Below are positions 3,789-13,094 of a DNA stretch of 64,000 bases, one piece after another (positions within the stretch are counted from its first letter, which is position 1; every line of letters begins with the position of its first letter). Below the pieces are notes generated by a model. It was not told where the DNA came from and made no database searches. It saw only the letters and a program-made list of their open reading frames with translations. The stretch lies in the sequence record MG589383; one strand, written 5' to 3'. The position numbers and the translations under genes are program-made. The DNA is from Shigella phage phi25-307.

Positions 3789-4337
3789 TTAACGAGCCCA
3801 TTTGATAATTTCTGTAATCAAATAATTACGTTCGCTTGCATTAAATCCTATAACTTTGTTAGCACCGTCATGATTAAGTAATTGATACGTTTGGATTTTG
3901 TTATGAATTGCAAACTCTTCAAAATATGAAATGACTGTATTAAAACCGAATGAAGACAAAGTAATAAGATCGTCTTCAAAACTTTCAGTCATTTCGTTAC
4001 GTGTTAAAATAATTGTGAACACATCATGGTTTTGGCAAAGACGAACATAATCCTGTTCATAAACGTCAAGAACCGAGTCCGCATCTTGTCGAATACGTCC
4101 ATAAACCCAGTTACTAATATATCCACGGTCTAACAGATAAATCTTAGTAGGGTCTAAATAATTCAACATCGTTTCGAAACAGCCAACTTCATTTCGAGAC
4201 TTAACATCGAAACGTCCATTAACTGTTCGTTTAGGGAAATCAATCTTTACATATCTTTCACTAATTTCCATTATGTCATTAATGAAAGTTGTTTTACCAG
4301 CATTATCCGGGCCATCTACTAAAATAATTTTAGCCAT
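3789..4337 (-). CDS. P-loop kinase-like protein (nucleoside/nucleotide kinase fold)
   Basis: Walker A VDGPDNAGKTT near N-terminus; 182 aa; sits at the T4 bgt locus. Confidence 0.6.
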   Translation of the reverse strand: MAKIILVDGPDNAGKTTFINDIMEISERYVKIDFPKRTVNGRFDVKSRNEVGCFETMLNYLDPTKIYLLDRGYISNWVYGRIRQDADSVLDVYEQDYVRLCQNHDVFTIILTRNEMTESFEDDLITLSSFGFNTVISYFEEFAIHNKIQTYQLLNHDGANKVIGFNASERNYLITEIIKWAR

Positions 4338-4338
4338 T

Positions 4339-5238
4339 TTATTCCTCGATTACGACATCTTCGTATTTAGGTATATTATACGGTGAAGAAATTAAAGCAT
4401 TAAAGTAGATGAACTCACCAAGACCTGGATGGAATACTTCTTCAGGATTTTCGAAATATTGAATCTTCGGTCGTCCTTTAAGAATTTGATAGTACTCAGT
4501 TTTAGTTGGTTTAAAAATTCGAATCAGCGCTTCTTCAGGATACTTATTTCTGTCGAAGCTATTATTTGGATCGGTTATATAAAGCGGTTGACCTAATTGA
4601 ATTGCACATTCAACCACTTGTTCAAAACGATAGCACGGGTCACTAATTCGAAATGGATGAAAAATACCATCTAGATGAATAGGAGCCAAATCACCTACAA
4701 GACGCTGCATGATGGAAGGACGTATAACTTTCTGGGTTACGATAATCTTATTACCATCGGCACCAGCGTTAACCAGCACTTCCTTTTGACGTTTATTCAA
4801 CACAGTAGTTTGAAGTGAACGATTAACCGACAACATATCGGTTTTTAAGAATTCGTCAATATAAAAACGTGGTTTATTAGGGTCTGCAGTGATATTGAAA
4901 TTGAATTCCACATCAAAAGCGCCGTCATATCCAGTGATATCTGTGATTAGAAAATCACAATCATAATAAGCAATTAATGAATCAACCACAAATTCATTTT
5001 CAGACCAGAAATATTTACGAGTGTTATACGCGTTATCTTTATACCATAATGGAACAAACTTAAATTCTGGGAAAAGACGTTCACATTCTTTAATATCAGA
5101 TGCATTACGTGGATATGTAATCACATCACCCGGATTAGCACGGTGCAAATGAAGTTGGAAGTTGCCATCCTTAAGGATAGCGTACTGTCCAGTTTCATAA
5201 GACCGCATACTCAAGATAGGTACGCGGAAAATAGCCAT
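4339..5238 (-). CDS. hypothetical protein at bgt locus; candidate DNA sugar transferase
   Basis: 299 aa ORF; start overlaps gene 42 stop as TAATG; no known motif, function inferred from position only. Confidence 0.55.
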   Translation of the reverse strand: MAIFRVPILSMRSYETGQYAILKDGNFQLHLHRANPGDVITYPRNASDIKECERLFPEFKFVPLWYKDNAYNTRKYFWSENEFVVDSLIAYYDCDFLITDITGYDGAFDVEFNFNITADPNKPRFYIDEFLKTDMLSVNRSLQTTVLNKRQKEVLVNAGADGNKIIVTQKVIRPSIMQRLVGDLAPIHLDGIFHPFRISDPCYRFEQVVECAIQLGQPLYITDPNNSFDRNKYPEEALIRIFKPTKTEYYQILKGRPKIQYFENPEEVFHPGLGEFIYFNALISSPYNIPKYEDVVIEE

Positions 5239-5954
5239 TAGTCAAGGAATCCTTTAACATAATCAAAATCACGTTCAAACACATGGGCACTTACCATGGT
5301 ATGAGTATAATCACCAACTTCTACACCGCATTCGTTAGCGATATAATGAAGTAATTTTCCTTGGAGATAAAAATCCAACTGCATAACAACAGCACAGTTC
5401 TGAGAACGCATATGACAGTGGGTATAAAGCTTACCATCACGAATATAATAAGTCACTGAGTCAGTACATGGATATTCAAGCGTTTCGTCTGAATCAAGCA
5501 AAGCCTGATCAGAACTTTCTAGAATTTGGAACACAACTCTTCGAGAGTTAGGCTTCTCTTTAAGTTCTTTTAGAAGAGCTGGTAATTGGGCCACAATGCG
5601 AGGACCATAGAAAGTGTTGAAGTTCGCCGGCAAAACATCTGATTTTGGTTTAGAAATAAATTTAGCGACATTAGGATATGCCTTAAACGCTTCTTCTGCG
5701 TTGGTACCACCAGAAATCATAAACTTCCAGAAGTCTTCGGCATATTCATAAGAGATGCGGTTAATACGTGGGTCGGTCATTTTGAATGTTGACGGGGTAT
5801 CAACAACTACTGTCATAGACCCAATTTCATTACAACGTCCAATACGAGAATCAGTTACGAATTCCGGGTTTTCTAAAATTTCACGATTGACTGCTTTAAA
5901 TGCGGTTTGAAAATCTGCGGCTTTGATATATTTCATTGTGTTATGTTTTCCCAT
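5238..5954 (-). CDS. 42: dCMP hydroxymethylase (thymidylate synthase superfamily)
   Basis: 238 aa; C-T-D-S-V-x-Y-Y-IRDGK...MRSQN...HVF pattern matches T4 gp42 catalytic region; RBS GAGGTAAAC. Confidence 0.8.
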   Translation of the reverse strand: MGKHNTMKYIKAADFQTAFKAVNREILENPEFVTDSRIGRCNEIGSMTVVVDTPSTFKMTDPRINRISYEYAEDFWKFMISGGTNAEEAFKAYPNVAKFISKPKSDVLPANFNTFYGPRIVAQLPALLKELKEKPNSRRVVFQILESSDQALLDSDETLEYPCTDSVTYYIRDGKLYTHCHMRSQNCAVVMQLDFYLQGKLLHYIANECGVEVGDYTHTMVSAHVFERDFDYVKGFLD

Positions 5955-5973
5955 GTTTACCTCAATACAATTT

Positions 5974-5998
5974 ATTATATACTCAATTCGTAAAGCTT
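5974..5998 (-). promoter_or_regulatory. middle (MotA-type) promoter candidate upstream of gene 42
   Basis: minus strand AAGCTTTAC - 11 nt - TATAAT. Confidence 0.35.
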
Positions 5999-6233
5999 AT
6001 TTGAATTTCTTGACAATGTTGATATAACGTAAAGCTTCAGCATCGATACTTCCAAGAACACTATGAAGAAATGCATCAGCGTAGTATTCCAATTGAACAG
6101 GTTTCTTTAATCACTTTAGCCGCTTTAGTTTCAAACAGGCCCATCAGGGCCTTTTTAAGAATTTGTTCATTAGTGTTCAGTTTCATAGTCAAAATCTCTT
6201 CATTAAGTTGGTGGTTAAAAGTTTTTCTAGAAA

Positions 6234-7394
6234 TCATTCCGGGTACCTCAAAGCGTCATCAGAGTTAGTTATATCAATAATAGATATAGAGTTTTCTGCT
6301 AACCCATTTTTAGATAACTGACGTTTATAATATCTTTCACAATATGTACACGTCGTCCCGCAGATTTCATTAGCACAATCGAAATCTGGATGTCTGAACC
6401 ACCTTTTTTCTAAAAAGCCATCTAACAAAGAGGTTTCAATATTTACTGTATGTGAAAACTCAGTTTCATTTTCAAGAGTGAAAATAGTCTCTAAAGGCTT
6501 CCACAGTTCTAACAAATTACCTTCAAACTTTTCAGAAGCGTATGCTTCAAGAACTTTCAAAATGTAGTCTGTGCTACCTGTACGTCCTGAAACTTTGAAT
6601 TGAGTGATACCAATATCATTATAAAGTTTCAAATCTTGAGGACGAACAAAACGAGTTCTCAGCCAGTTAAATGGGTCTGTATCACGAGCTTTAATGCAGT
6701 GTTGCATTGGATATCCATTTAAGGATTTAGCATCATCAGCTGTAACATCAGTACTATGGAAAATATAGCAAGAGTCACGATAGCTACAATGTGTTGTATA
6801 CCCTTTACCAGCATTAGAACAGAACTCATTTACAAGAACTTCAAATATTATATTGTTCTTATTGCAAAACTCTGCTGCACGCTTCAGGAAAGAAACTGAA
6901 CGGTTCTTATGAATTCCACAGCAGACCTTTTTGATATTATACTGGTCATGCAAGTATTTGATTTGAGTTACAGCATCGACATGTAGAATTGTTGAAACTT
7001 CAATCTCAATGTCTTTATTGACTTCACGAACAATTTCCATAACAACAGGGTTAGCGATAGTAATACGCCATACGCCTATTGACCAAAGATACTGAACATA
7101 ATCCTGAATAGCTTTCTTCTTCCACTCAACTAGTTCTCTTTTTGAACCAGGATTTATCGTGTTGAGTGTATAGTTAAAGCAAATACCTAATTCGTTACAA
7201 CGTTTAACGTAATCTTCTAACATCTTTTTGTCAACGTCAGGAAGCCTAAAATCAGGTCTGGCTGCTACAAAAGCCATTTCTCTTGTAGAGCCGTATACTT
7301 CGTTTATCAAGCTATTAGGATAAGTTTTATTGAGCTCTACGATTTTATCAAGAAGAGCTAAATCAAAATTCGTTCCGATTTTAAAAGTATTCAT
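6234..7394 (-). CDS. hypothetical Cys-rich protein (386 aa) at imm locus
   Basis: long ORF; C-terminal cysteine cluster CANEICGTTCTYC; possible metal or Fe-S binding enzyme. Confidence 0.6.
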   Translation of the reverse strand: MNTFKIGTNFDLALLDKIVELNKTYPNSLINEVYGSTREMAFVAARPDFRLPDVDKKMLEDYVKRCNELGICFNYTLNTINPGSKRELVEWKKKAIQDYVQYLWSIGVWRITIANPVVMEIVREVNKDIEIEVSTILHVDAVTQIKYLHDQYNIKKVCCGIHKNRSVSFLKRAAEFCNKNNIIFEVLVNEFCSNAGKGYTTHCSYRDSCYIFHSTDVTADDAKSLNGYPMQHCIKARDTDPFNWLRTRFVRPQDLKLYNDIGITQFKVSGRTGSTDYILKVLEAYASEKFEGNLLELWKPLETIFTLENETEFSHTVNIETSLLDGFLEKRWFRHPDFDCANEICGTTCTYCERYYKRQLSKNGLAENSISIIDITNSDDALRYPE

Positions 7395-7453
7395 TTTTTA
7401 CATCTCGCGTTAATTGATGCGATGGTTTTTTTTTGCAGGTCTTACTTAAATTA

Positions 7454-7840
7454 TTATAGATTCGGTTTATATGATTTAAATGTTTCGAATTCGCCTTTAT
7501 TCATAAGAGCTTTGAATTCGTCAGGACGCATAGCTTTGTCGTCGATAATCCAATCATATACTGGTTTATGTGTTAGCAAATTATGGTACTTCAATCCAAT
7601 GTTTGCCAAGTTCTGAATCAGACTTGGGAGAATGTCAATTGCTATACGACCAGGACCTACTGACTTCATACCGCGAGCAGTGTAAAGCGTTATGGTATGC
7701 CCTGCATCATACAGGGCATTAATGGCAGACACCATTTCGACGTCTGGTTTGAAGTTCACGTAATCACGATTGTTATTCCACTCTGTTATACAATCATCGA
7801 CATCAAAACAAAGATTAAGCATGTTTTTTACACGGTGCAT
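7454..7840 (-). CDS. HAD-superfamily phosphatase-like protein
   Basis: FDVDDC (DxD nucleophile motif), LYTARG, conserved K, WIIDDK; ATG overlaps upstream stop as TAATG. Confidence 0.55.
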   Translation of the reverse strand: MHRVKNMLNLCFDVDDCITEWNNNRDYVNFKPDVEMVSAINALYDAGHTITLYTARGMKSVGPGRIAIDILPSLIQNLANIGLKYHNLLTHKPVYDWIIDDKAMRPDEFKALMNKGEFETFKSYKPNL

Positions 7841-9525
7841 TAGATTCGTTCCCATTGATGAGTGATATCGCCACCGATTGGACGATAAGAAACACCAGTT
7901 TCTTTATCAGTTAGTACCCATTTACCAGGATTTTTTGTAATCAGAGTAGCCGTTACAGGTTCTGCTACATCATAACTAATAGTGCCGTCCTGAAGTACAC
8001 GGCCCATATTACGTAATTGCTTAGTCAGAAGTTCCATACCTTTATAATATGCGGCTACCGCTTTAAGTGGATTATTCTTGAAATAACCACCTAATGCAAT
8101 CCAGATAATTGCTACAGCCAAATGATGATACTCATTAAACGAACTCATCTTTCCATATTTGTAAACTAATGGATTGATGTTAATAGTCACATTACAAGTT
8201 GTTTCATCAATAGTAAACTGTCCCCAGGTCGGATTAGCATTGAATTCATCATAACCTGAAACAGCATAAAGCACTTTAGCTTCATCATACAATTTTGGCC
8301 CGTAAATCTTGGTTTCACCAAAATATCCACGAGGGTCGATAAACTTGACTTCACCATTATCAGTAATCATAGTATTACTGAAGTTTGGGTCACCATGAAT
8401 AACAGAGTACTGTCCCTGAGAACGGTTATGATAACGAATAAGGTGTTCTAAAGCTTGTTTCAGCATTGGCTTCAGACGCCCAATCTTAGTGTAGTTCACA
8501 TGTGTGATTTTACCGAATGAATCAATCAATGGTTGAATACTTTCACAACGATCAATAACTTTCGTATAGAACTCTTTAGTGAAATCACGGCGAACAGTTT
8601 CAGGACTTACAAAATAAGTGTCTGTGCTGAATTTCAGTGCATCTAAAATTGCATCAACAATTTGTGGACGAGCAAGACTTGATTTGGATTTAATATATTC
8701 AAATGCCGGCTTACCTTTAATGCGTTCCATTTCAAAGTTATTTTCATTAACAGAAACTAACTGAGGAACTGAATCTGATTTCACTTTAAGATACCATGAA
8801 ATCTCATCTTTCTGAAGAGCTCGACCCTGTTCGGTTAATGCGAATTTAGTTACAGTTTCTTCACCAATTTCAACTGCATTAAAACTACGATTAAGTTCAC
8901 GAACTTCATGAGCTTTTTCAAGTTTAGGCATATCACCTAAATCAATTAGATTCATAAGCTCTGATTTATTGAATGCGCTGCCGTAAAGGAATTCTACGAA
9001 ATCACGTCCTTTGCAGTATTCATGAATTTCCTCATCAGTAGAACCCATATAGAATTCCCAGTCTTTGAACTGATAAATTCCTACAACATTACCACCTGTT
9101 GAACCTACATTAGTGATATTTTCACCGTCGAAATTATATCGACATTCGTCACCCTTAACATAGATTGCGTTAACATTCCAAGACCATGAACCAAAATCAG
9201 GAATAATATCACACCAGTTAACAATTACATTATGGCCGTCTAAATCTTTGTGTAATTTAGCAAGAGCATAAGCAGAACCATACGCTTCATCAACTGTACG
9301 AATAGTCACATTGAACCCTTCTTGCTCACAATAAGCTCGAACAGTTTCAGCAAATTTTGAATGAACTACTACAATAATTTCATCTGCACCAAGGTCAGAA
9401 TAAATTGTATACAAATTGCTCAGAATAGTGTCTTGTTTATAGTTAACAAGCACCTTAGGAATATGATGTGTTATTGGATACAAACGAGTTGCCAGTCCAG
9501 CACCAAGAATAACAGCTTTTTTCAT
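7840..9525 (-). CDS. bifunctional sugar-1-phosphate nucleotidyltransferase / sugar kinase
   Basis: N-terminus ILGAGLATRLYPIT..IPK (GxGTRLxPxT NTase signature); C-terminus HGDPNFSNTMI...FIDPRG (APH/choline-kinase Brenner motif). Confidence 0.85.
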   Translation of the reverse strand: MKKAVILGAGLATRLYPITHHIPKVLVNYKQDTILSNLYTIYSDLGADEIIVVVHSKFAETVRAYCEQEGFNVTIRTVDEAYGSAYALAKLHKDLDGHNVIVNWCDIIPDFGSWSWNVNAIYVKGDECRYNFDGENITNVGSTGGNVVGIYQFKDWEFYMGSTDEEIHEYCKGRDFVEFLYGSAFNKSELMNLIDLGDMPKLEKAHEVRELNRSFNAVEIGEETVTKFALTEQGRALQKDEISWYLKVKSDSVPQLVSVNENNFEMERIKGKPAFEYIKSKSSLARPQIVDAILDALKFSTDTYFVSPETVRRDFTKEFYTKVIDRCESIQPLIDSFGKITHVNYTKIGRLKPMLKQALEHLIRYHNRSQGQYSVIHGDPNFSNTMITDNGEVKFIDPRGYFGETKIYGPKLYDEAKVLYAVSGYDEFNANPTWGQFTIDETTCNVTININPLVYKYGKMSSFNEYHHLAVAIIWIALGGYFKNNPLKAVAAYYKGMELLTKQLRNMGRVLQDGTISYDVAEPVTATLITKNPGKWVLTDKETGVSYRPIGGDITHQWERI

Positions 9526-9706
9526 GTTGTGGTCCTCATTGGTAAGTAGGAGTATTGTACACTATTCTAGTTAAAGCATTCATACTTTGCTTGTAGTCCA
9601 ATCATAATCCATCCAATTACAAGTGTTGGAATCATTACCGGAGCCGTTAAGCTCCAGTAGATAGTCATGACAAGCATCAATAGTAAAAGTCCTATTGTTA
9701 TTGCTT

Positions 9707-10342
9707 TCATTGTTCGCCTCGTAACATGGCACCTAGTGCACCGCCAGGGTGGAACTTAAGGAAGTCATTAGAGGTAAATCCACGTTCAGACGAAAGGTTG
9801 ATAGCAAACGTATCGATAAGCGCTAACAACAATGTAGTGGACATAGTCGGAGCCAGAGAATTCTCATCAACCTCTACTGCGATGCCTGTACAGAAAGAGT
9901 AATCAAAAAGGGCTTCATTTTCTTGTGGAATGTCTGGGTTACAATGCAACAGAATCTGTTTGACGTTCGGACGAATCATTTTAAGATGCTTAGCCACACC
10001 TATCATTTCTTCAGTTTTACCAGAACGACTAATATGAATCAACACATCATTAGGCGCAATGAATCCTGCATCACCGTGAGAATAATGCCCGGTGTTCAAG
10101 TACATACTCGGGATACCGAGTGAAGCAAATGTCTCAGAAGCTTTAGTTGCAATATTAGCATTCTTACCAACACCTGTAATAATTACTCGGCTTTCATAAT
10201 TACTAAGTCCCGGACGTCGAAGAGTTTCTAGAATAGCATTATAACGAGCAGGGTTTTGACTAATTACTTTGGCCATAGCGGCCAAAGAAGAAGATTGTTT
10301 TATGATTGCGTCAATAGCGATAGTAATAGGAGTAGTTTTCAT
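9707..10342 (-). CDS. SIS-domain arabinose-5-phosphate isomerase (KdsD/GutQ family)
   Basis: ITGVGKNANIATKASETFASLGIPS...HGDAG...ISRSGKTEE...HPGGALG aligns to KdsD SIS core. Confidence 0.85.
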   Translation of the reverse strand: MKTTPITIAIDAIIKQSSSLAAMAKVISQNPARYNAILETLRRPGLSNYESRVIITGVGKNANIATKASETFASLGIPSMYLNTGHYSHGDAGFIAPNDVLIHISRSGKTEEMIGVAKHLKMIRPNVKQILLHCNPDIPQENEALFDYSFCTGIAVEVDENSLAPTMSTTLLLALIDTFAINLSSERGFTSNDFLKFHPGGALGAMLRGEQ

Positions 10343-10382
10343 ATTTCTCTCATTTAATTAGTTTACCGTCCATGTCATTATA

Positions 10383-13094
10383 TCAAAAATCGAACATATC
10401 GAACAGAGATGCTTTCTTCTCGTAATCGAGTTTCGCTGCTGATGTGAATCCTTCAAGTGGTTTAATAAATGTCTTCTCAAGGAGAACAGTGTAGTCCATC
10501 CAATGAAGTACGTCGTCTTTAATTAAATCTGTGATTTCAGTACCAGAAGGCCATGCGATACATTTATCACCGAATGGGTTTCCTTCACGTAAAGGCAGAA
10601 CATATACTTTTTCACCTTCTACAACTTGTGGTGCATCGATATTACCTTTGATAGCACGGTTATACGTCAGAATTCCACGAATATGGAACGGGCATTTGGG
10701 ACCAGGGAATCCACCTACATCGTATTTAGCAATGTTATTCGCAGAAGATACCGACGCGATGCTAATATAATTCAATTGACGGAATTCTTTTTCAAACTCT
10801 TTAAAATATTCTTGTAATGATTCTTCACCTTCTTGAAGCATACGACGAATACATTCTTTAAGAGCTTTCTGTACTGCTTTAGGAGTCGAAGATTTCTGAG
10901 TCTCTAGACCCATGATTTTGAGTTTAGGCTCAGCGTAACGAGTACCTTCCATATCCCATACGTTTAATGCATAACGTTTCTTACCAGTCCAGAATCCACC
11001 AATACCTTTAGAACCAAGTGGAGGCCCAGCGATAGCTTCTCGGTCCATGAACATTAAGTGTTGTTTATTGTTCATGTATTCACACATTTCACGGAAACCT
11101 CTATCAATAGCTGGTTCCATACGTTCACGTGCAAACTTATCTAAGAAGTCTACCCAATGGTTGGTATCACGGAATTTAGATTCACCAACCTTATCGATAA
11201 TTTTATCAGCAGATACGTAAATAGAGTCTGTATCACCATAAAGAACGAAAGCTTCACCTTCTGTACCGCAAACTTCATTCAGATATTCATTAACTTTACG
11301 TTCAATCCACTGTAAAGCCATTTGTCCGAATGTTGTGATTGCAGTAGCATTACGCAAATCATAATAACGGAACCAAACGTTGCCAAGTGCACCATAAAGT
11401 GAGTTGATAAGCAATTTACGGTTAATTTGGGCAGTCATACCTGCAACTTCAGTACGTTGAGCTCTAAACAACATTTCATTAAGAGATTTAGCAGACAACT
11501 TTTTAATCTTTTCTTTAATCTCATCGCTGAAGTCGAAACGATAATCAACATCTAATGGTTCGTCAACAGAAAGATTAGGATTATGCAATGCCTCTTTAAT
11601 TATTTCACCATTACGTTGAGCTGCAAGCATGTAACCTTTATGTTCTTTACGTTGATTAAAGACCTTAGTGATTTCAGTTGGAACTACACCATCACGGTCT
11701 TTATAATACATCATGCCGTTAGGAGAACAACTGTACACATCAGAAGGACGTTCAGCAACAGCGTTAATATAATCATGCAATGGAGCTACTTTAAACGTTC
11801 CTGCTATTGTTTCTGGGCTAATATTCACTTGGCGAATAATACTTGGATACAGAGATGTAAGGTCGAAACTCATTACATATTTGTATCGATTTGGAATAGG
11901 TTCCTTAACAAAAGCGCCAGGATAAGGTTGAACCGGGTGAGAACGACCTTGTGGAATCACCTTGTTCTGCTCTTTAAGGCTATTAAAAATAATAGCATCC
12001 CATGTTTTAATTGGGCTAAATACAGATTGAATCTGAATTTTAGCATAATAACCCATGTCCAAACTCAAGTTGATGAACTGACGCTTAGCATCAATTTGCA
12101 ATACACGATACACATCGATAATGTTATAAGAAATATATCGTTGGTGATTGCTTTCACGAAGCTTAGAAATAGGGCCGTCATATTTCAGTTTACCAACGTT
12201 CAATTCAAATTCTGAAATGTAATCCAGAGAATATGACGGTTGATTGGTAAAAGAGAATTTTTTGTAAAGGTCAATGTAATCAAGAACAGAGATACCGAAC
12301 AATGTAATGATTTCACGAGAACCATACATGTTTTCGATAACTTTAACACGAGTTTTACGATGTGGTGATAAACGTTTCGCAGTAGATTCGCCAAAAATAT
12401 TCTTGATTCGGTTATACACATACGGAATATCAAATGACTCAACGTTCCATCCAGTCAAAATGACAGGAGTTTTCTGTTGCCAGAAGTTGAGATATTCCAT
12501 CAACAATTCTTTTTCGTTATCGAACGGCATATAAATGATTTTATCGATAATTTCGGATGGAACTTCATCACCACCTTGTTCTTGAAGCTTAGCCGCAATT
12601 TCGATAGACCATTCTTCTACATTACCATATGGAGAATTCAATAGATCAAATACGTAGAACCTGTCGTCAATTGAGTCATAATGGGTGATAGCATCAATCG
12701 GATGTTTTGCTTGTGAAGGCTCAGGGAACCCATCCGGAGATGTTACTTCGATGTCGAAGTTAGCCGCACGAATTTTTGTATGGTCGTATTTGATTTCATA
12801 GTTATAAGTGTCAGACAAATACGCCAATTTGAAATCGTCCATGCCAAGTGCTTCAAGACCGATATCTTCCATGCGTTTAATCCATTGGGAGGCATCACGC
12901 ATATTAGCGAACAACTTACGAGTACACGGCTTACCGTAGATATCGAAATATTTCGTAGCCTGACTTTCCGGACAATGAGCAAACAGTGATGGTTTATATT
13001 CTACTTCACGAGTACGTTCACGGCCGTTAGAATCGATGTAACGTTCAAAAATTGAATCACCAATCTGTTCAACCGTTAAGTAAAATTCTTTCAT
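10383..13094 (-). CDS. 43: DNA polymerase gp43 (family B)
   Basis: 903 aa; exo motifs FDIEV, NIIDVYRVL; YGDTDS polymerase motif; matches recalled RB69 gp43. Confidence 0.97.
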   Translation of the reverse strand: MKEFYLTVEQIGDSIFERYIDSNGRERTREVEYKPSLFAHCPESQATKYFDIYGKPCTRKLFANMRDASQWIKRMEDIGLEALGMDDFKLAYLSDTYNYEIKYDHTKIRAANFDIEVTSPDGFPEPSQAKHPIDAITHYDSIDDRFYVFDLLNSPYGNVEEWSIEIAAKLQEQGGDEVPSEIIDKIIYMPFDNEKELLMEYLNFWQQKTPVILTGWNVESFDIPYVYNRIKNIFGESTAKRLSPHRKTRVKVIENMYGSREIITLFGISVLDYIDLYKKFSFTNQPSYSLDYISEFELNVGKLKYDGPISKLRESNHQRYISYNIIDVYRVLQIDAKRQFINLSLDMGYYAKIQIQSVFSPIKTWDAIIFNSLKEQNKVIPQGRSHPVQPYPGAFVKEPIPNRYKYVMSFDLTSLYPSIIRQVNISPETIAGTFKVAPLHDYINAVAERPSDVYSCSPNGMMYYKDRDGVVPTEITKVFNQRKEHKGYMLAAQRNGEIIKEALHNPNLSVDEPLDVDYRFDFSDEIKEKIKKLSAKSLNEMLFRAQRTEVAGMTAQINRKLLINSLYGALGNVWFRYYDLRNATAITTFGQMALQWIERKVNEYLNEVCGTEGEAFVLYGDTDSIYVSADKIIDKVGESKFRDTNHWVDFLDKFARERMEPAIDRGFREMCEYMNNKQHLMFMDREAIAGPPLGSKGIGGFWTGKKRYALNVWDMEGTRYAEPKLKIMGLETQKSSTPKAVQKALKECIRRMLQEGEESLQEYFKEFEKEFRQLNYISIASVSSANNIAKYDVGGFPGPKCPFHIRGILTYNRAIKGNIDAPQVVEGEKVYVLPLREGNPFGDKCIAWPSGTEITDLIKDDVLHWMDYTVLLEKTFIKPLEGFTSAAKLDYEKKASLFDMFDF

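What the first reader, a model, noticed from the sequence alone, without database searches (positions are those of the whole stretch)
7840..9525. Fused sugar-1-phosphate nucleotidyltransferase and APH-like sugar kinase in one 561 aa protein
The N-terminus has the GxGTRLxPxT...PK signature of RmlA/GalU-type nucleotidyltransferases and the C-terminus has the HGDxxxxN...IDxxG catalytic motifs of aminoglycoside-phosphotransferase/choline-kinase-like kinases. Kinase plus pyrophosphorylase fusions are a salvage-type route from free sugar to NDP-sugar (Fkp, AmgK/MurU are analogues); finding one in a phage replication module is unusual. The nucleotide used (UDP, CDP, other) and the sugar specificity are not deducible from sequence.
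Basis: seen in the sequence. Interest (0 to 1): 0.8.

Follow-up and report, generated by a model that had tools for sequence, protein, structure and literature searches.

The report
Known phage UDP-arabinose kinase–pyrophosphorylase fusion
This gene is real and encodes a two-domain enzyme, already described in RB69-type phages, that helps make the activated arabinose sugar these phages attach to their DNA cytosines to escape bacterial restriction, so the finding is correct but not new.

The parts
7840..9525 (-). Whole gene: 561-aa bifunctional nucleotidyltransferase/kinase (homologue of RB69 ORF53_52c = gp52:53; AfhE-type). Its last 16 nt overlap the start of the downstream HAD phosphatase gene.
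   Evidence: ORF and overlap; 99.5% to RB69, 99.3% to Bas47, 56.8% to DLP3 gp82; phrog_4098 end to end, E 4.6e-295
8911..9525 (-). N-terminal domain, residues 1-205: minimal RmlA/LicC/MurU-like sugar-1-phosphate nucleotidyltransferase. Signature GAGLATRL at nt 9481-9504, K24 at 9454-9456, D106 at 9208-9210.
8005..8892 (-). Kinase domain, residues 212-507: protein-kinase-like fold of the APH/choline-kinase/fructosamine-kinase type. K227 (nt 8845-8847), E241 (8803-8805), catalytic loop HGDPNFSN (8374-8397), metal-binding IDPRG (8326-8340).
7843..8004 (-). C-terminal 54-aa tail, residues 508-561 (…TKNPGKWVLTDKETGVSYRP…QWERI). Present in all 36 aligned homologues with >=37% identity and absent from the 18 more distant aligned ones. 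Function unknown.
   Evidence: presence/absence across 55 homologues; pLDDT 81-90, short strands; ranks 42 and 47 (58-60-aa stand-alone phage proteins, 38-40% identical over 53-56 aligned columns; that these columns are the tail is my inference, since the output gives no query coordinates)
9707..10342 (-). Upstream neighbour: 211-aa SIS-domain arabinose-5-phosphate isomerase (RB69 gp55). Supplies D-arabinose-5-P from ribulose-5-P.
   Evidence: Pfam SIS 1e-10; NCBIfam KpsF/GutQ 2e-32 and KdsD 7e-31; phrog_5670; Lee et al. Table 1
7454..7855 (-). Downstream neighbour: 133-aa HAD-type phosphatase (RB69 gp51; AfhF-type) with a DVDD motif. Proposed to remove the 5-phosphate from Ara-1,5-P2.
   Evidence: NCBIfam TIGR01689 capsule-biosynthesis phosphatase 4e-13; phrog_1238; sequence; Lee et al.
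6234..7394 (-). U32 'peptidase'-family protein (RB69 gp50), inside the cluster. Role unresolved (see Noticed in passing).
   Evidence: Pfam Peptidase_U32 7e-11; 220 phage records, all >=82% identical
5238..5954 (-). ThyA-like 5-hydroxy-dCMP synthase (RB69 gp48). Makes the acceptor base.
   Evidence: Pfam Thymidylat_synt 1e-15; activity shown experimentally for RB69 gp48 by Lee et al.
4339..5238 (-). 299-aa putative first arabinosyltransferase (RB69 gp46:47, also split in the RB69 record). Would consume the NDP-arabinose.
   Evidence: phrog_3891 3e-156; Lee et al. Table 1 and text
3789..4337 (-). Thymidylate-kinase-like nucleotide kinase (RB69 gp45), at the uvsX-side end of the cluster.
   Evidence: Translation; RB69 annotation; Lee et al. 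Table 1

Best explanation
The gene encodes the Mosigvirus member of the AfhE-type bifunctional enzymes, which supply the sugar donor for arabinosylation of 5-hydroxycytosine in phage DNA. Proposed mechanism: (1) The SIS isomerase encoded just upstream, or host KdsD/GutQ, converts ribulose-5-P to D-arabinose-5-P. (2) The C-terminal APH-like kinase domain uses ATP to phosphorylate the anomeric C1-OH, giving arabinofuranose-1,5-bisphosphate. (3) The HAD phosphatase, whose gene overlaps this one by 16 nt, removes the 5-phosphate. (4) The N-terminal RmlA/MurU-like domain condenses Araf-1-P with UTP to give UDP-D-arabinofuranose plus PPi. (5) The cluster's glycosyltransferases transfer arabinose onto 5-hydroxycytosine. 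Shown here: the two folds, the invariant catalytic residues, the conserved neighbourhood, and near-identity to RB69 gp52:53 and to the Bas47 protein. Taken from the literature: arabinosyl-5hoC in RB69 and other Mosigvirus DNA, and the kinase and pyrophosphorylase activities of the homologue AfhE. Inferred: that this particular protein has the same substrates and the same order of steps.
Against: There is no assay on this protein or on RB69 gp52:53. The AfhE biochemistry is known to me only as relayed by Lee et al., because the primary paper (Nat Chem Biol 2026) and Mahler et al. 2025 are not in the library. I could not obtain the HY126 sequence, so identity to the assayed enzyme is unknown. 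Table 1 of Lee et al. still lists the alternative order, phosphatase first and then a kinase acting on free arabinose. Purified Thanatos TH1_060 made no NDP-sugar from xylose-1-P with any NTP, but that substrate is not the cognate one. For this sequence alone the kinase domain is below Pfam gathering thresholds and has no phmmer hit in the PDB, so the assignment rests on family-level profiles and on the fold.
Confidence: 0.8

Rival explanations
1. Free-sugar route. The HAD phosphatase first dephosphorylates Ara-5-P to free D-arabinose. The kinase domain then phosphorylates free arabinose at C1, and the NTase domain activates Ara-1-P, as AmgK/MurU or Fkp do for salvaged sugars.
For: The closest solved kinases (choline kinase, APH, fructosamine kinase) act on non-phosphorylated substrates. 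Lee et al. Table 1 lists 'dephosphorylates Araf5p to Ara' and 'phosphorylates Ara to Araf1p'. Gene content alone fits either order.
Against: [quoted passage not shown] The HAD protein resembles bisphosphate phosphatases of the GmhB type and capsule-pathway phosphatases. The established heptose precedent (GmhA, HldE, GmhB) uses the bisphosphate order (own knowledge). Many invariant basic residues in the kinase domain (R213, R326, R399, K417, K488) would suit a phosphorylated substrate, but that is only suggestive.
Confidence: 0.13
2. The protein is itself a DNA or nucleotide glycosyltransferase with an attached phosphotransferase, moving the pentose onto cytosine. This was suggested for Thanatos TH1_060 and by the GT-A domain annotation.
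For: The CDD 'glycosyltransferase family A' label on the N-terminal domain. The Thanatos authors kept it as a GT candidate.
Confidence: 0.03
3. The enzyme activates a different small molecule or uses a different nucleotide: for example a LicA/LicC-like phospho-alcohol with CTP, or another pentose such as xylose or ribose.
Against: RB69 and other Mosigvirus DNA carries arabinose on 5-hydroxycytosine. The adjacent gene is an arabinose-5-P isomerase. UDP-Araf works as donor in vitro. AfhE is reported as a UDP-D-arabinose pyrophosphorylase.
Confidence: 0.04

Closest known systems
AfhE of Escherichia phage HY126; RB69 gp52:53 (ORF53_52c); Acinetobacter phage DLP3 gp82; Bas47 bas47_0151; Thanatos TH1_060
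   Different: Nothing substantive. This is simply another Mosigvirus isolate, 100% identical to phage S143_2. Identity to the biochemically assayed HY126 protein could not be measured.
ADP-heptose pathway GmhA / HldE / GmhB, and the GDP-heptose pathway HddA / GmhB / HddC
   Same: Same chemical logic: SIS ketose-phosphate isomerase, then anomeric kinase giving a 1,n-bisphosphate, then HAD phosphatase removing the distal phosphate, then nucleotidyltransferase. As in HldE, kinase and NTase are fused. HddC is the best PDB hit for the family profile (E 1e-13).
   Different: A five-carbon sugar and UDP instead of a heptose with ADP or GDP. The HldE kinase is PfkB/ribokinase-like and its NTase is cytidylyltransferase-like, and HddA is a GHMP kinase (own knowledge). 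Here the kinase is protein-kinase-like and the NTase is RmlA-like. This is analogy, not homology, except for the HddC, SIS and HAD parts.
AmgK / MurU (MurNAc salvage) and LicA / LicC (choline activation)
   Different: Those are separate polypeptides that act on salvaged, non-phosphorylated substrates with no phosphatase step in between. Here the two are fused, need an intervening HAD phosphatase, and are fed by an isomerase.
Fkp (Bacteroides L-fucokinase / GDP-fucose pyrophosphorylase) and the Leishmania arabinokinase/pyrophosphorylase
   Same: A bifunctional kinase-plus-pyrophosphorylase on one chain that makes an NDP-sugar.
   Different: The Fkp kinase domain is of the GHMP family and acts on free sugar (own knowledge). 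No GHMP or PfkB match was found here.

Membership tests
AfhE-type bifunctional Ara-5-P kinase / UDP-Araf pyrophosphorylase (phage arabinosyl-5-hydroxycytosine pathway) | N-terminal RmlA/MurU/LicC-like nucleotidyltransferase domain with the G-x-x-T-R-L...K signature | tested here: met
AfhE-type bifunctional Ara-5-P kinase / UDP-Araf pyrophosphorylase (phage arabinosyl-5-hydroxycytosine pathway) | C-terminal APH/choline-kinase-like kinase domain with intact catalytic residues, on the same polypeptide | tested here: met
AfhE-type bifunctional Ara-5-P kinase / UDP-Araf pyrophosphorylase (phage arabinosyl-5-hydroxycytosine pathway) | Encoded beside an arabinose-5-P isomerase, an AfhF-type HAD phosphatase, a ThyA-like 5hodCMP synthase and glycosyltransferase(s) | tested here: met
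   the same layout in RB69, Bas47 and KLB31 and on a distant 350-kb contig
AfhE-type bifunctional Ara-5-P kinase / UDP-Araf pyrophosphorylase (phage arabinosyl-5-hydroxycytosine pathway) | Sequence homology to the proteins named in the literature | tested here: met
   99.5% to RB69 gp52:53, 99.3% to Bas47, 56.8% to DLP3 gp82, 54% to Thanatos TH1_060. Homology to HY126 AfhE itself could not be tested because its sequence is not held; the equivalence is stated by Lee et al..
AfhE-type bifunctional Ara-5-P kinase / UDP-Araf pyrophosphorylase (phage arabinosyl-5-hydroxycytosine pathway) | Enzyme activities: Ara-5-P 1-kinase, and UTP:Araf-1-P uridylyltransferase | not testable with these tools
   Reported for HY126 AfhE only, second-hand through PMC13326640
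HldE (bifunctional heptose-7-P kinase / heptose-1-P adenylyltransferase) | PfkB/ribokinase-type kinase domain and cytidylyltransferase-type (HIGH-motif) NTase domain | tested here: not met
Fkp-type fucokinase / GDP-fucose pyrophosphorylase | GHMP-family sugar kinase domain fused to the NTase | tested here: not met
   No GHMP Pfam hit; the kinase fold is APH/choline-kinase-like
AmgK/MurU or LicA/LicC salvage pairs | The same two folds (APH-like kinase, minimal RmlA-like NTase) | tested here: met
AmgK/MurU or LicA/LicC salvage pairs | Separate proteins acting directly on a salvaged, unphosphorylated substrate with no phosphatase step | tested here: not met
   Here the domains are fused. The gene is flanked by an isomerase that makes the phosphosugar and by a HAD phosphatase, and distant relatives fuse all four activities. 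The substrate itself could not be tested.

The most novel reading that the evidence does not exclude
The 54-residue C-terminal tail (residues 508-561; TKxPxKWxLxDxETGxxY...W) has not been described in the papers I could read. It is conserved in every aligned homologue with >=37% identity, is missing from the giant-virus and other distant homologues, and appears to exist as a stand-alone ~60-aa phage protein. It could be a docking module that ties the bifunctional enzyme to the HAD phosphatase, or to the glycosyltransferase or replisome. In that case Ara-1,5-P2, Ara-1-P and UDP-Araf would be channelled rather than released into a host that otherwise lacks NDP-arabinose metabolism.
Probability: 0.1. 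Interest if true: 0.35.

Novelty: already known. Interest (0 to 1): 0.15.

Why it matters
UDP-D-arabinofuranose is not a normal enterobacterial metabolite, so the phage must bring its own route to it. This enzyme carries two of the four steps. The resulting arabinosyl-5-hydroxycytosine blocks many restriction enzymes and changes how the phage responds to CRISPR and type IV systems, which bears on phage therapy and on enzymatic synthesis of rare NDP-furanoses. All of this has been published (Thomas 2018; Mahler 2025; He 2026; Lee 2026). For this window the practical result is a correct annotation, not a discovery.

Tried and rejected
1. The single-sequence AF2 model was useless (pLDDT 33). I replaced it with a model built on a 55-sequence alignment.
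2. phmmer of the kinase domain alone against the PDB found nothing, and a family profile gave only marginal kinase hits (E 0.004-0.4). The kinase assignment therefore rests on fold and family-level Pfam hits.
4. The primary papers are not held (He et al. 2026 and Mahler et al. 2025). Searches for AfhE, HY126 and arabinofuranosyl turned up no further source. HY126 exists in the NCBI taxonomy, but I could not retrieve its sequence.
5. Promoter and terminator scans of 4000-10500 found no more sites than shuffled sequence, so they are uninformative.
6. The afdb50 fold library was unavailable.
7. Rejected readings: a GHMP/Fkp-type or PfkB/HldE-type kinase (no such hits); a glycosyltransferase function for the N-terminal domain; a 'replication module' context as something unusual.

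Full report
OBSERVATION. A single ATG-to-TAA ORF of 561 aa lies at 7840..9525 on the minus strand. Residues 8-15 read GAGLATRL and the motif continues ...YPIT...IPK24. Residues 377-384 read HGDPNFSN and residues 396-400 read IDPRG. G-L-A-T-R-L is nevertheless the consensus of the whole family, and it aligns residue for residue with the LicC signature AGLGTRLRPLT...PK.

WHERE THE WINDOW COMES FROM. The next gene upstream (10383..13094, minus strand) is the RB69-type gp43 DNA polymerase. The 6.1-kb stretch 4300-10400 is 97.8-98.6% identical to the 30 best-matching phage records, which include RB69 itself, and 153 of 209 matching records fall in the 95-99% identity band. At the protein level the gene is 100% identical to phage S143_2, 99.5% to RB69 and 99.3% to BASEL phage Bas47 (AlbertHofmann), where it is already annotated 'putative enzyme involved in UDP-arabinose biosynthesis'. 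In the RB69 reference record the gene is split into ORF053c (221 aa) and ORF052c (346 aa). My alignment shows one extra C in the RB69 record after gene nucleotide 654, at codon 218 in the inter-domain linker. Thomas et al. 2018 (PMC6024577) resequenced this region, found the extra C to be a sequencing error, renamed the gene ORF53_52c (561 aa, 63.9 kDa), expressed it as a single band, and proposed that it acts in UDP-arabinose generation.

WHAT THE PROTEIN IS. Pfam finds NTP_transferase at residues 3-99 (E 8.5e-10). For this sequence alone it finds only sub-threshold kinase-like hits around residues 344-409. Across 55 homologues, 48 hit NTP_transferase and 24 hit APH, with a best E of 6e-10. 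A single-sequence AlphaFold model failed (pLDDT 33). A model built on a 55-sequence alignment is excellent (pLDDT 94.3, pTM 0.91).

A third element, a 54-aa C-terminal tail (residues 508-561), is present in all 36 aligned homologues with at least 37% identity and absent from the 18 more distant aligned ones.

CONTEXT. The cluster between gp43 and uvsX is all on one strand. In order it contains:
- a 211-aa SIS arabinose-5-P isomerase (9707..10342; KpsF/GutQ family, E 2e-32);
- this gene;
- a 133-aa HAD phosphatase whose start overlaps this gene's end by 16 nt (7454..7855);
- a U32-family protein (6234..7394);
- a ThyA-like enzyme (5238..5954);
- a 299-aa glycosyltransferase candidate (4339..5238);
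- a thymidylate-kinase-like protein (3789..4337).

The module survives deep divergence. A 35%-identical homologue on a 350-kb contig sits among SIS, GT2, HAD, ThyA-homologue, T4-EndoIV-like and dCMP-deaminase genes. Tenacibaculum phage PTm5 has the fusion next to a histidine phosphatase and a ThyA homologue. In contigs with giant-virus hallmarks (MutS with an HNH domain, RNA polymerase subunits), proteins of about 890-955 aa fuse HAD + SIS + NTase + kinase in one chain. The family is not rare: it occurs in 372 phage records, and 135 cluster representatives score E<=1e-30, nearly all listed ones covering both domains.

HOW IT MOST LIKELY WORKS. Lee et al. 2026 (PMC13326640) showed that RB69 DNA carries mono- and di-arabinosylated 5-hydroxycytosine, not arabinosyl-hmC as first thought. 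They also showed that RB69 gp48, the ThyA-like enzyme, makes 5-hydroxy-dCMP. They modelled gp52:53 as a MurU-like NTD plus an APH-like CTD. Citing He et al. (Nat Chem Biol 2026), they report that the homologue AfhE of phage HY126 is a dual D-arabinose-5-phosphate kinase / UDP-D-arabinose pyrophosphorylase, and that AfhF, the HAD protein, is the Mg-dependent phosphatase acting on the bisphosphate. UDP-Araf, but not UDP-Arap, served as donor for DLP3 glycosyltransferases acting on RB69 DNA.

The best-supported route is therefore Ru5P → Ara5P (SIS isomerase or host KdsD/GutQ) → Araf-1,5-P2 (kinase domain) → Araf-1-P (HAD phosphatase) → UDP-Araf (NTase domain) → DNA. The folds, catalytic residues and context are shown here. 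The activities come from the literature on a homologue. Applying them to this protein is inference, though a safe one given the 99.5% identity to RB69 gp52:53 and the shared gene cluster. The Thanatos homologue (54% identical) is required for phage propagation. It showed no activity with xylose-1-P, which is a non-cognate substrate.

COMPARISON WITH KNOWN SYSTEMS. The chemical logic is that of nucleotide-heptose synthesis: GmhA (SIS isomerase), HldE kinase, GmhB (HAD phosphatase), then HldE or HddC nucleotidyltransferase (own knowledge of that pathway). As in HldE, the kinase and NTase are fused. However, the kinase here is protein-kinase-like rather than PfkB or GHMP, so the protein works like HldE without being a member. 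The two folds are those of the AmgK/MurU and LicA/LicC pairs. Those are separate proteins acting on salvaged, unphosphorylated substrates, with no phosphatase step. Fkp shares only the 'kinase plus pyrophosphorylase on one chain' idea and has a GHMP kinase. I give it about 0.13.

NOVELTY AND VERDICT. The fusion, its split annotation in RB69, its role in NDP-arabinose supply and its domain structure are all published, and a homologue has been assayed. My analyses reproduce those results independently. Interest is 0.15. The only unreported detail I found in the protein itself is the clade-specific C-terminal tail.

LIMITS. I could not read He et al. 2026 or Mahler et al. 2025, and I could not obtain the HY126 sequence.

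SIDE OBSERVATIONS. These are listed under Noticed in passing. The most interesting concerns the U32-family gene in the cluster. It is far more conserved than its neighbours: all 220 matching phage records are at least 82% identical. It occurs only in phages of Enterobacterales and Shewanella and in none of the Acinetobacter phages that carry the NTase-kinase. In 48 records it is followed by an AroQ chorismate mutase. U32 relatives RlhA, TrhP and UbiU/V are prephenate-dependent, O2-independent hydroxylases (PMC5727448 and PMC6599085, found; mechanistic details from my own knowledge). The phage U32 protein could therefore be an anaerobic route to 5-hydroxycytosine. The papers I could read do not say so.

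Noticed in passing
window 6234..7394 (-); L010:4983-6394: The U32 'peptidase'-family gene in the cluster is at least 82% identical in all 220 phage records that carry it, far more conserved than the NTase-kinase (43-72% in the same phages). It is found only in phages of Enterobacterales and Shewanella (facultative anaerobes) and in none of the 57 Acinetobacter phage records with the NTase-kinase. In 48 records the next ORF is an AroQ chorismate mutase (Pfam CM_2, E 1.3e-9). U32 relatives RlhA, TrhP and UbiU/V are prephenate-dependent, O2-independent hydroxylases. It may therefore be an anaerobic route to 5-hydroxycytosine that complements the O2/flavin-dependent ThyA-like synthase. Lee et al. 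only label it 'sugar or heterocycle reductase'.
   Followed up: partly
window 5998..6237 (-): The homologue of RB69ORF049c (79 aa in RB69 and Bas47) is frameshifted in this window by one extra A in an A-run (AAAGAAACC versus AAAGAACC). That leaves a 53-aa ORF at 6076..6237. It could be a real mutation or a homopolymer sequencing error. This Mosigvirus ORF sits where other genera have the chorismate mutase but shows no detectable similarity to it.
   Followed up: partly
L001 (RB69 NC_004928) locus ~7569 = record ~29126: By my alignment, the extra C that splits RB69 ORF053c and ORF052c lies at record position ~29126, inside the 20-nt overlap of the two annotated ORFs. Thomas et al. cite C-29116. 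This is a 10-nt discrepancy in the reported coordinate, not in substance.
   Followed up: yes
L002:8001-10781 (GCA_013558355.1 contig); P0084, P0088, P0089, P0092, P0095, P0109 and others: Proteins of about 890-955 aa fuse HAD phosphatase + SIS isomerase + NTase + APH-like kinase, which would put the whole Ru5P-to-NDP-pentose route on one polypeptide. The neighbours of P0084 (MutS with HNH, RNA polymerase Rpb2 and Rpb10, Autophagy_act_C) look like a giant virus of the Mimiviridae type. What these viruses do with the product is unknown.
   Followed up: partly
P0091 (EukProt, Ceratiomyxa fruticulosa transcriptome): A 955-aa HAD+SIS+(NTase)+kinase fusion appears in a slime-mould transcriptome with several isoforms. 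It could be a eukaryotic gene, a viral one or a contaminant.
   Followed up: no
L008:5001-7939 (Tenacibaculum phage PTm5): A 27.5%-identical NTase-kinase fusion is followed by a histidine phosphatase (not HAD) and a ThyA homologue. This looks like a non-homologous replacement of the phosphatase step in an otherwise similar module.
   Followed up: no
L011:3135-9689 (350-kb metagenomic contig): A jumbo-phage-like contig carries SIS, GT2 glycosyltransferase, a tail-less NTase-kinase, HAD, a ThyA homologue, a T4 EndoIV-like nuclease and a dCMP deaminase. It is probably another cytosine-glycosylating phage lineage that uses a GT-A rather than a GT-B transferase.
   Followed up: no
window 7843..8004 (-), residues 508-561: The clade-specific 54-aa C-terminal tail has no Pfam match and no separate PHROG match. 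Two stand-alone 58-60-aa proteins of uncultured phages in BFVD match the model over 53-56 aligned columns (38-40% identity, TM 0.71-0.73). I take this to be the tail region, but the output gives no query coordinates.
   Followed up: partly
window 9707..10342 (-): The phage arabinose-5-P isomerase is a bare SIS domain of 211 aa. It matches positions 47-202 of the 328-position KdsD model, so it lacks the C-terminal region of KdsD/GutQ (the CBS pair, from my own knowledge).
   Followed up: no
L006 (Escherichia phage IME08, Dhakavirus): The IME08 cluster has the NTase-kinase (42.7% identical), the HAD protein, tmk, ThyA-like and GT genes, but no annotated SIS isomerase or U32 gene. Instead imm and a 166-aa ORF lie between gp43 and the fusion. 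This phage presumably relies on host KdsD/GutQ for Ara-5-P.
   Followed up: no
P0106, P0108, P0111, P0112, P0116: Variants of about 780-790 aa extend the NTase-kinase at the C-terminus. In P0106 a weak mannose-6-P-isomerase (cupin) Pfam match sits in that extension, and P0106 and P0111 carry that source annotation. This may be a different phosphosugar entry point to the same activation logic.
   Followed up: no
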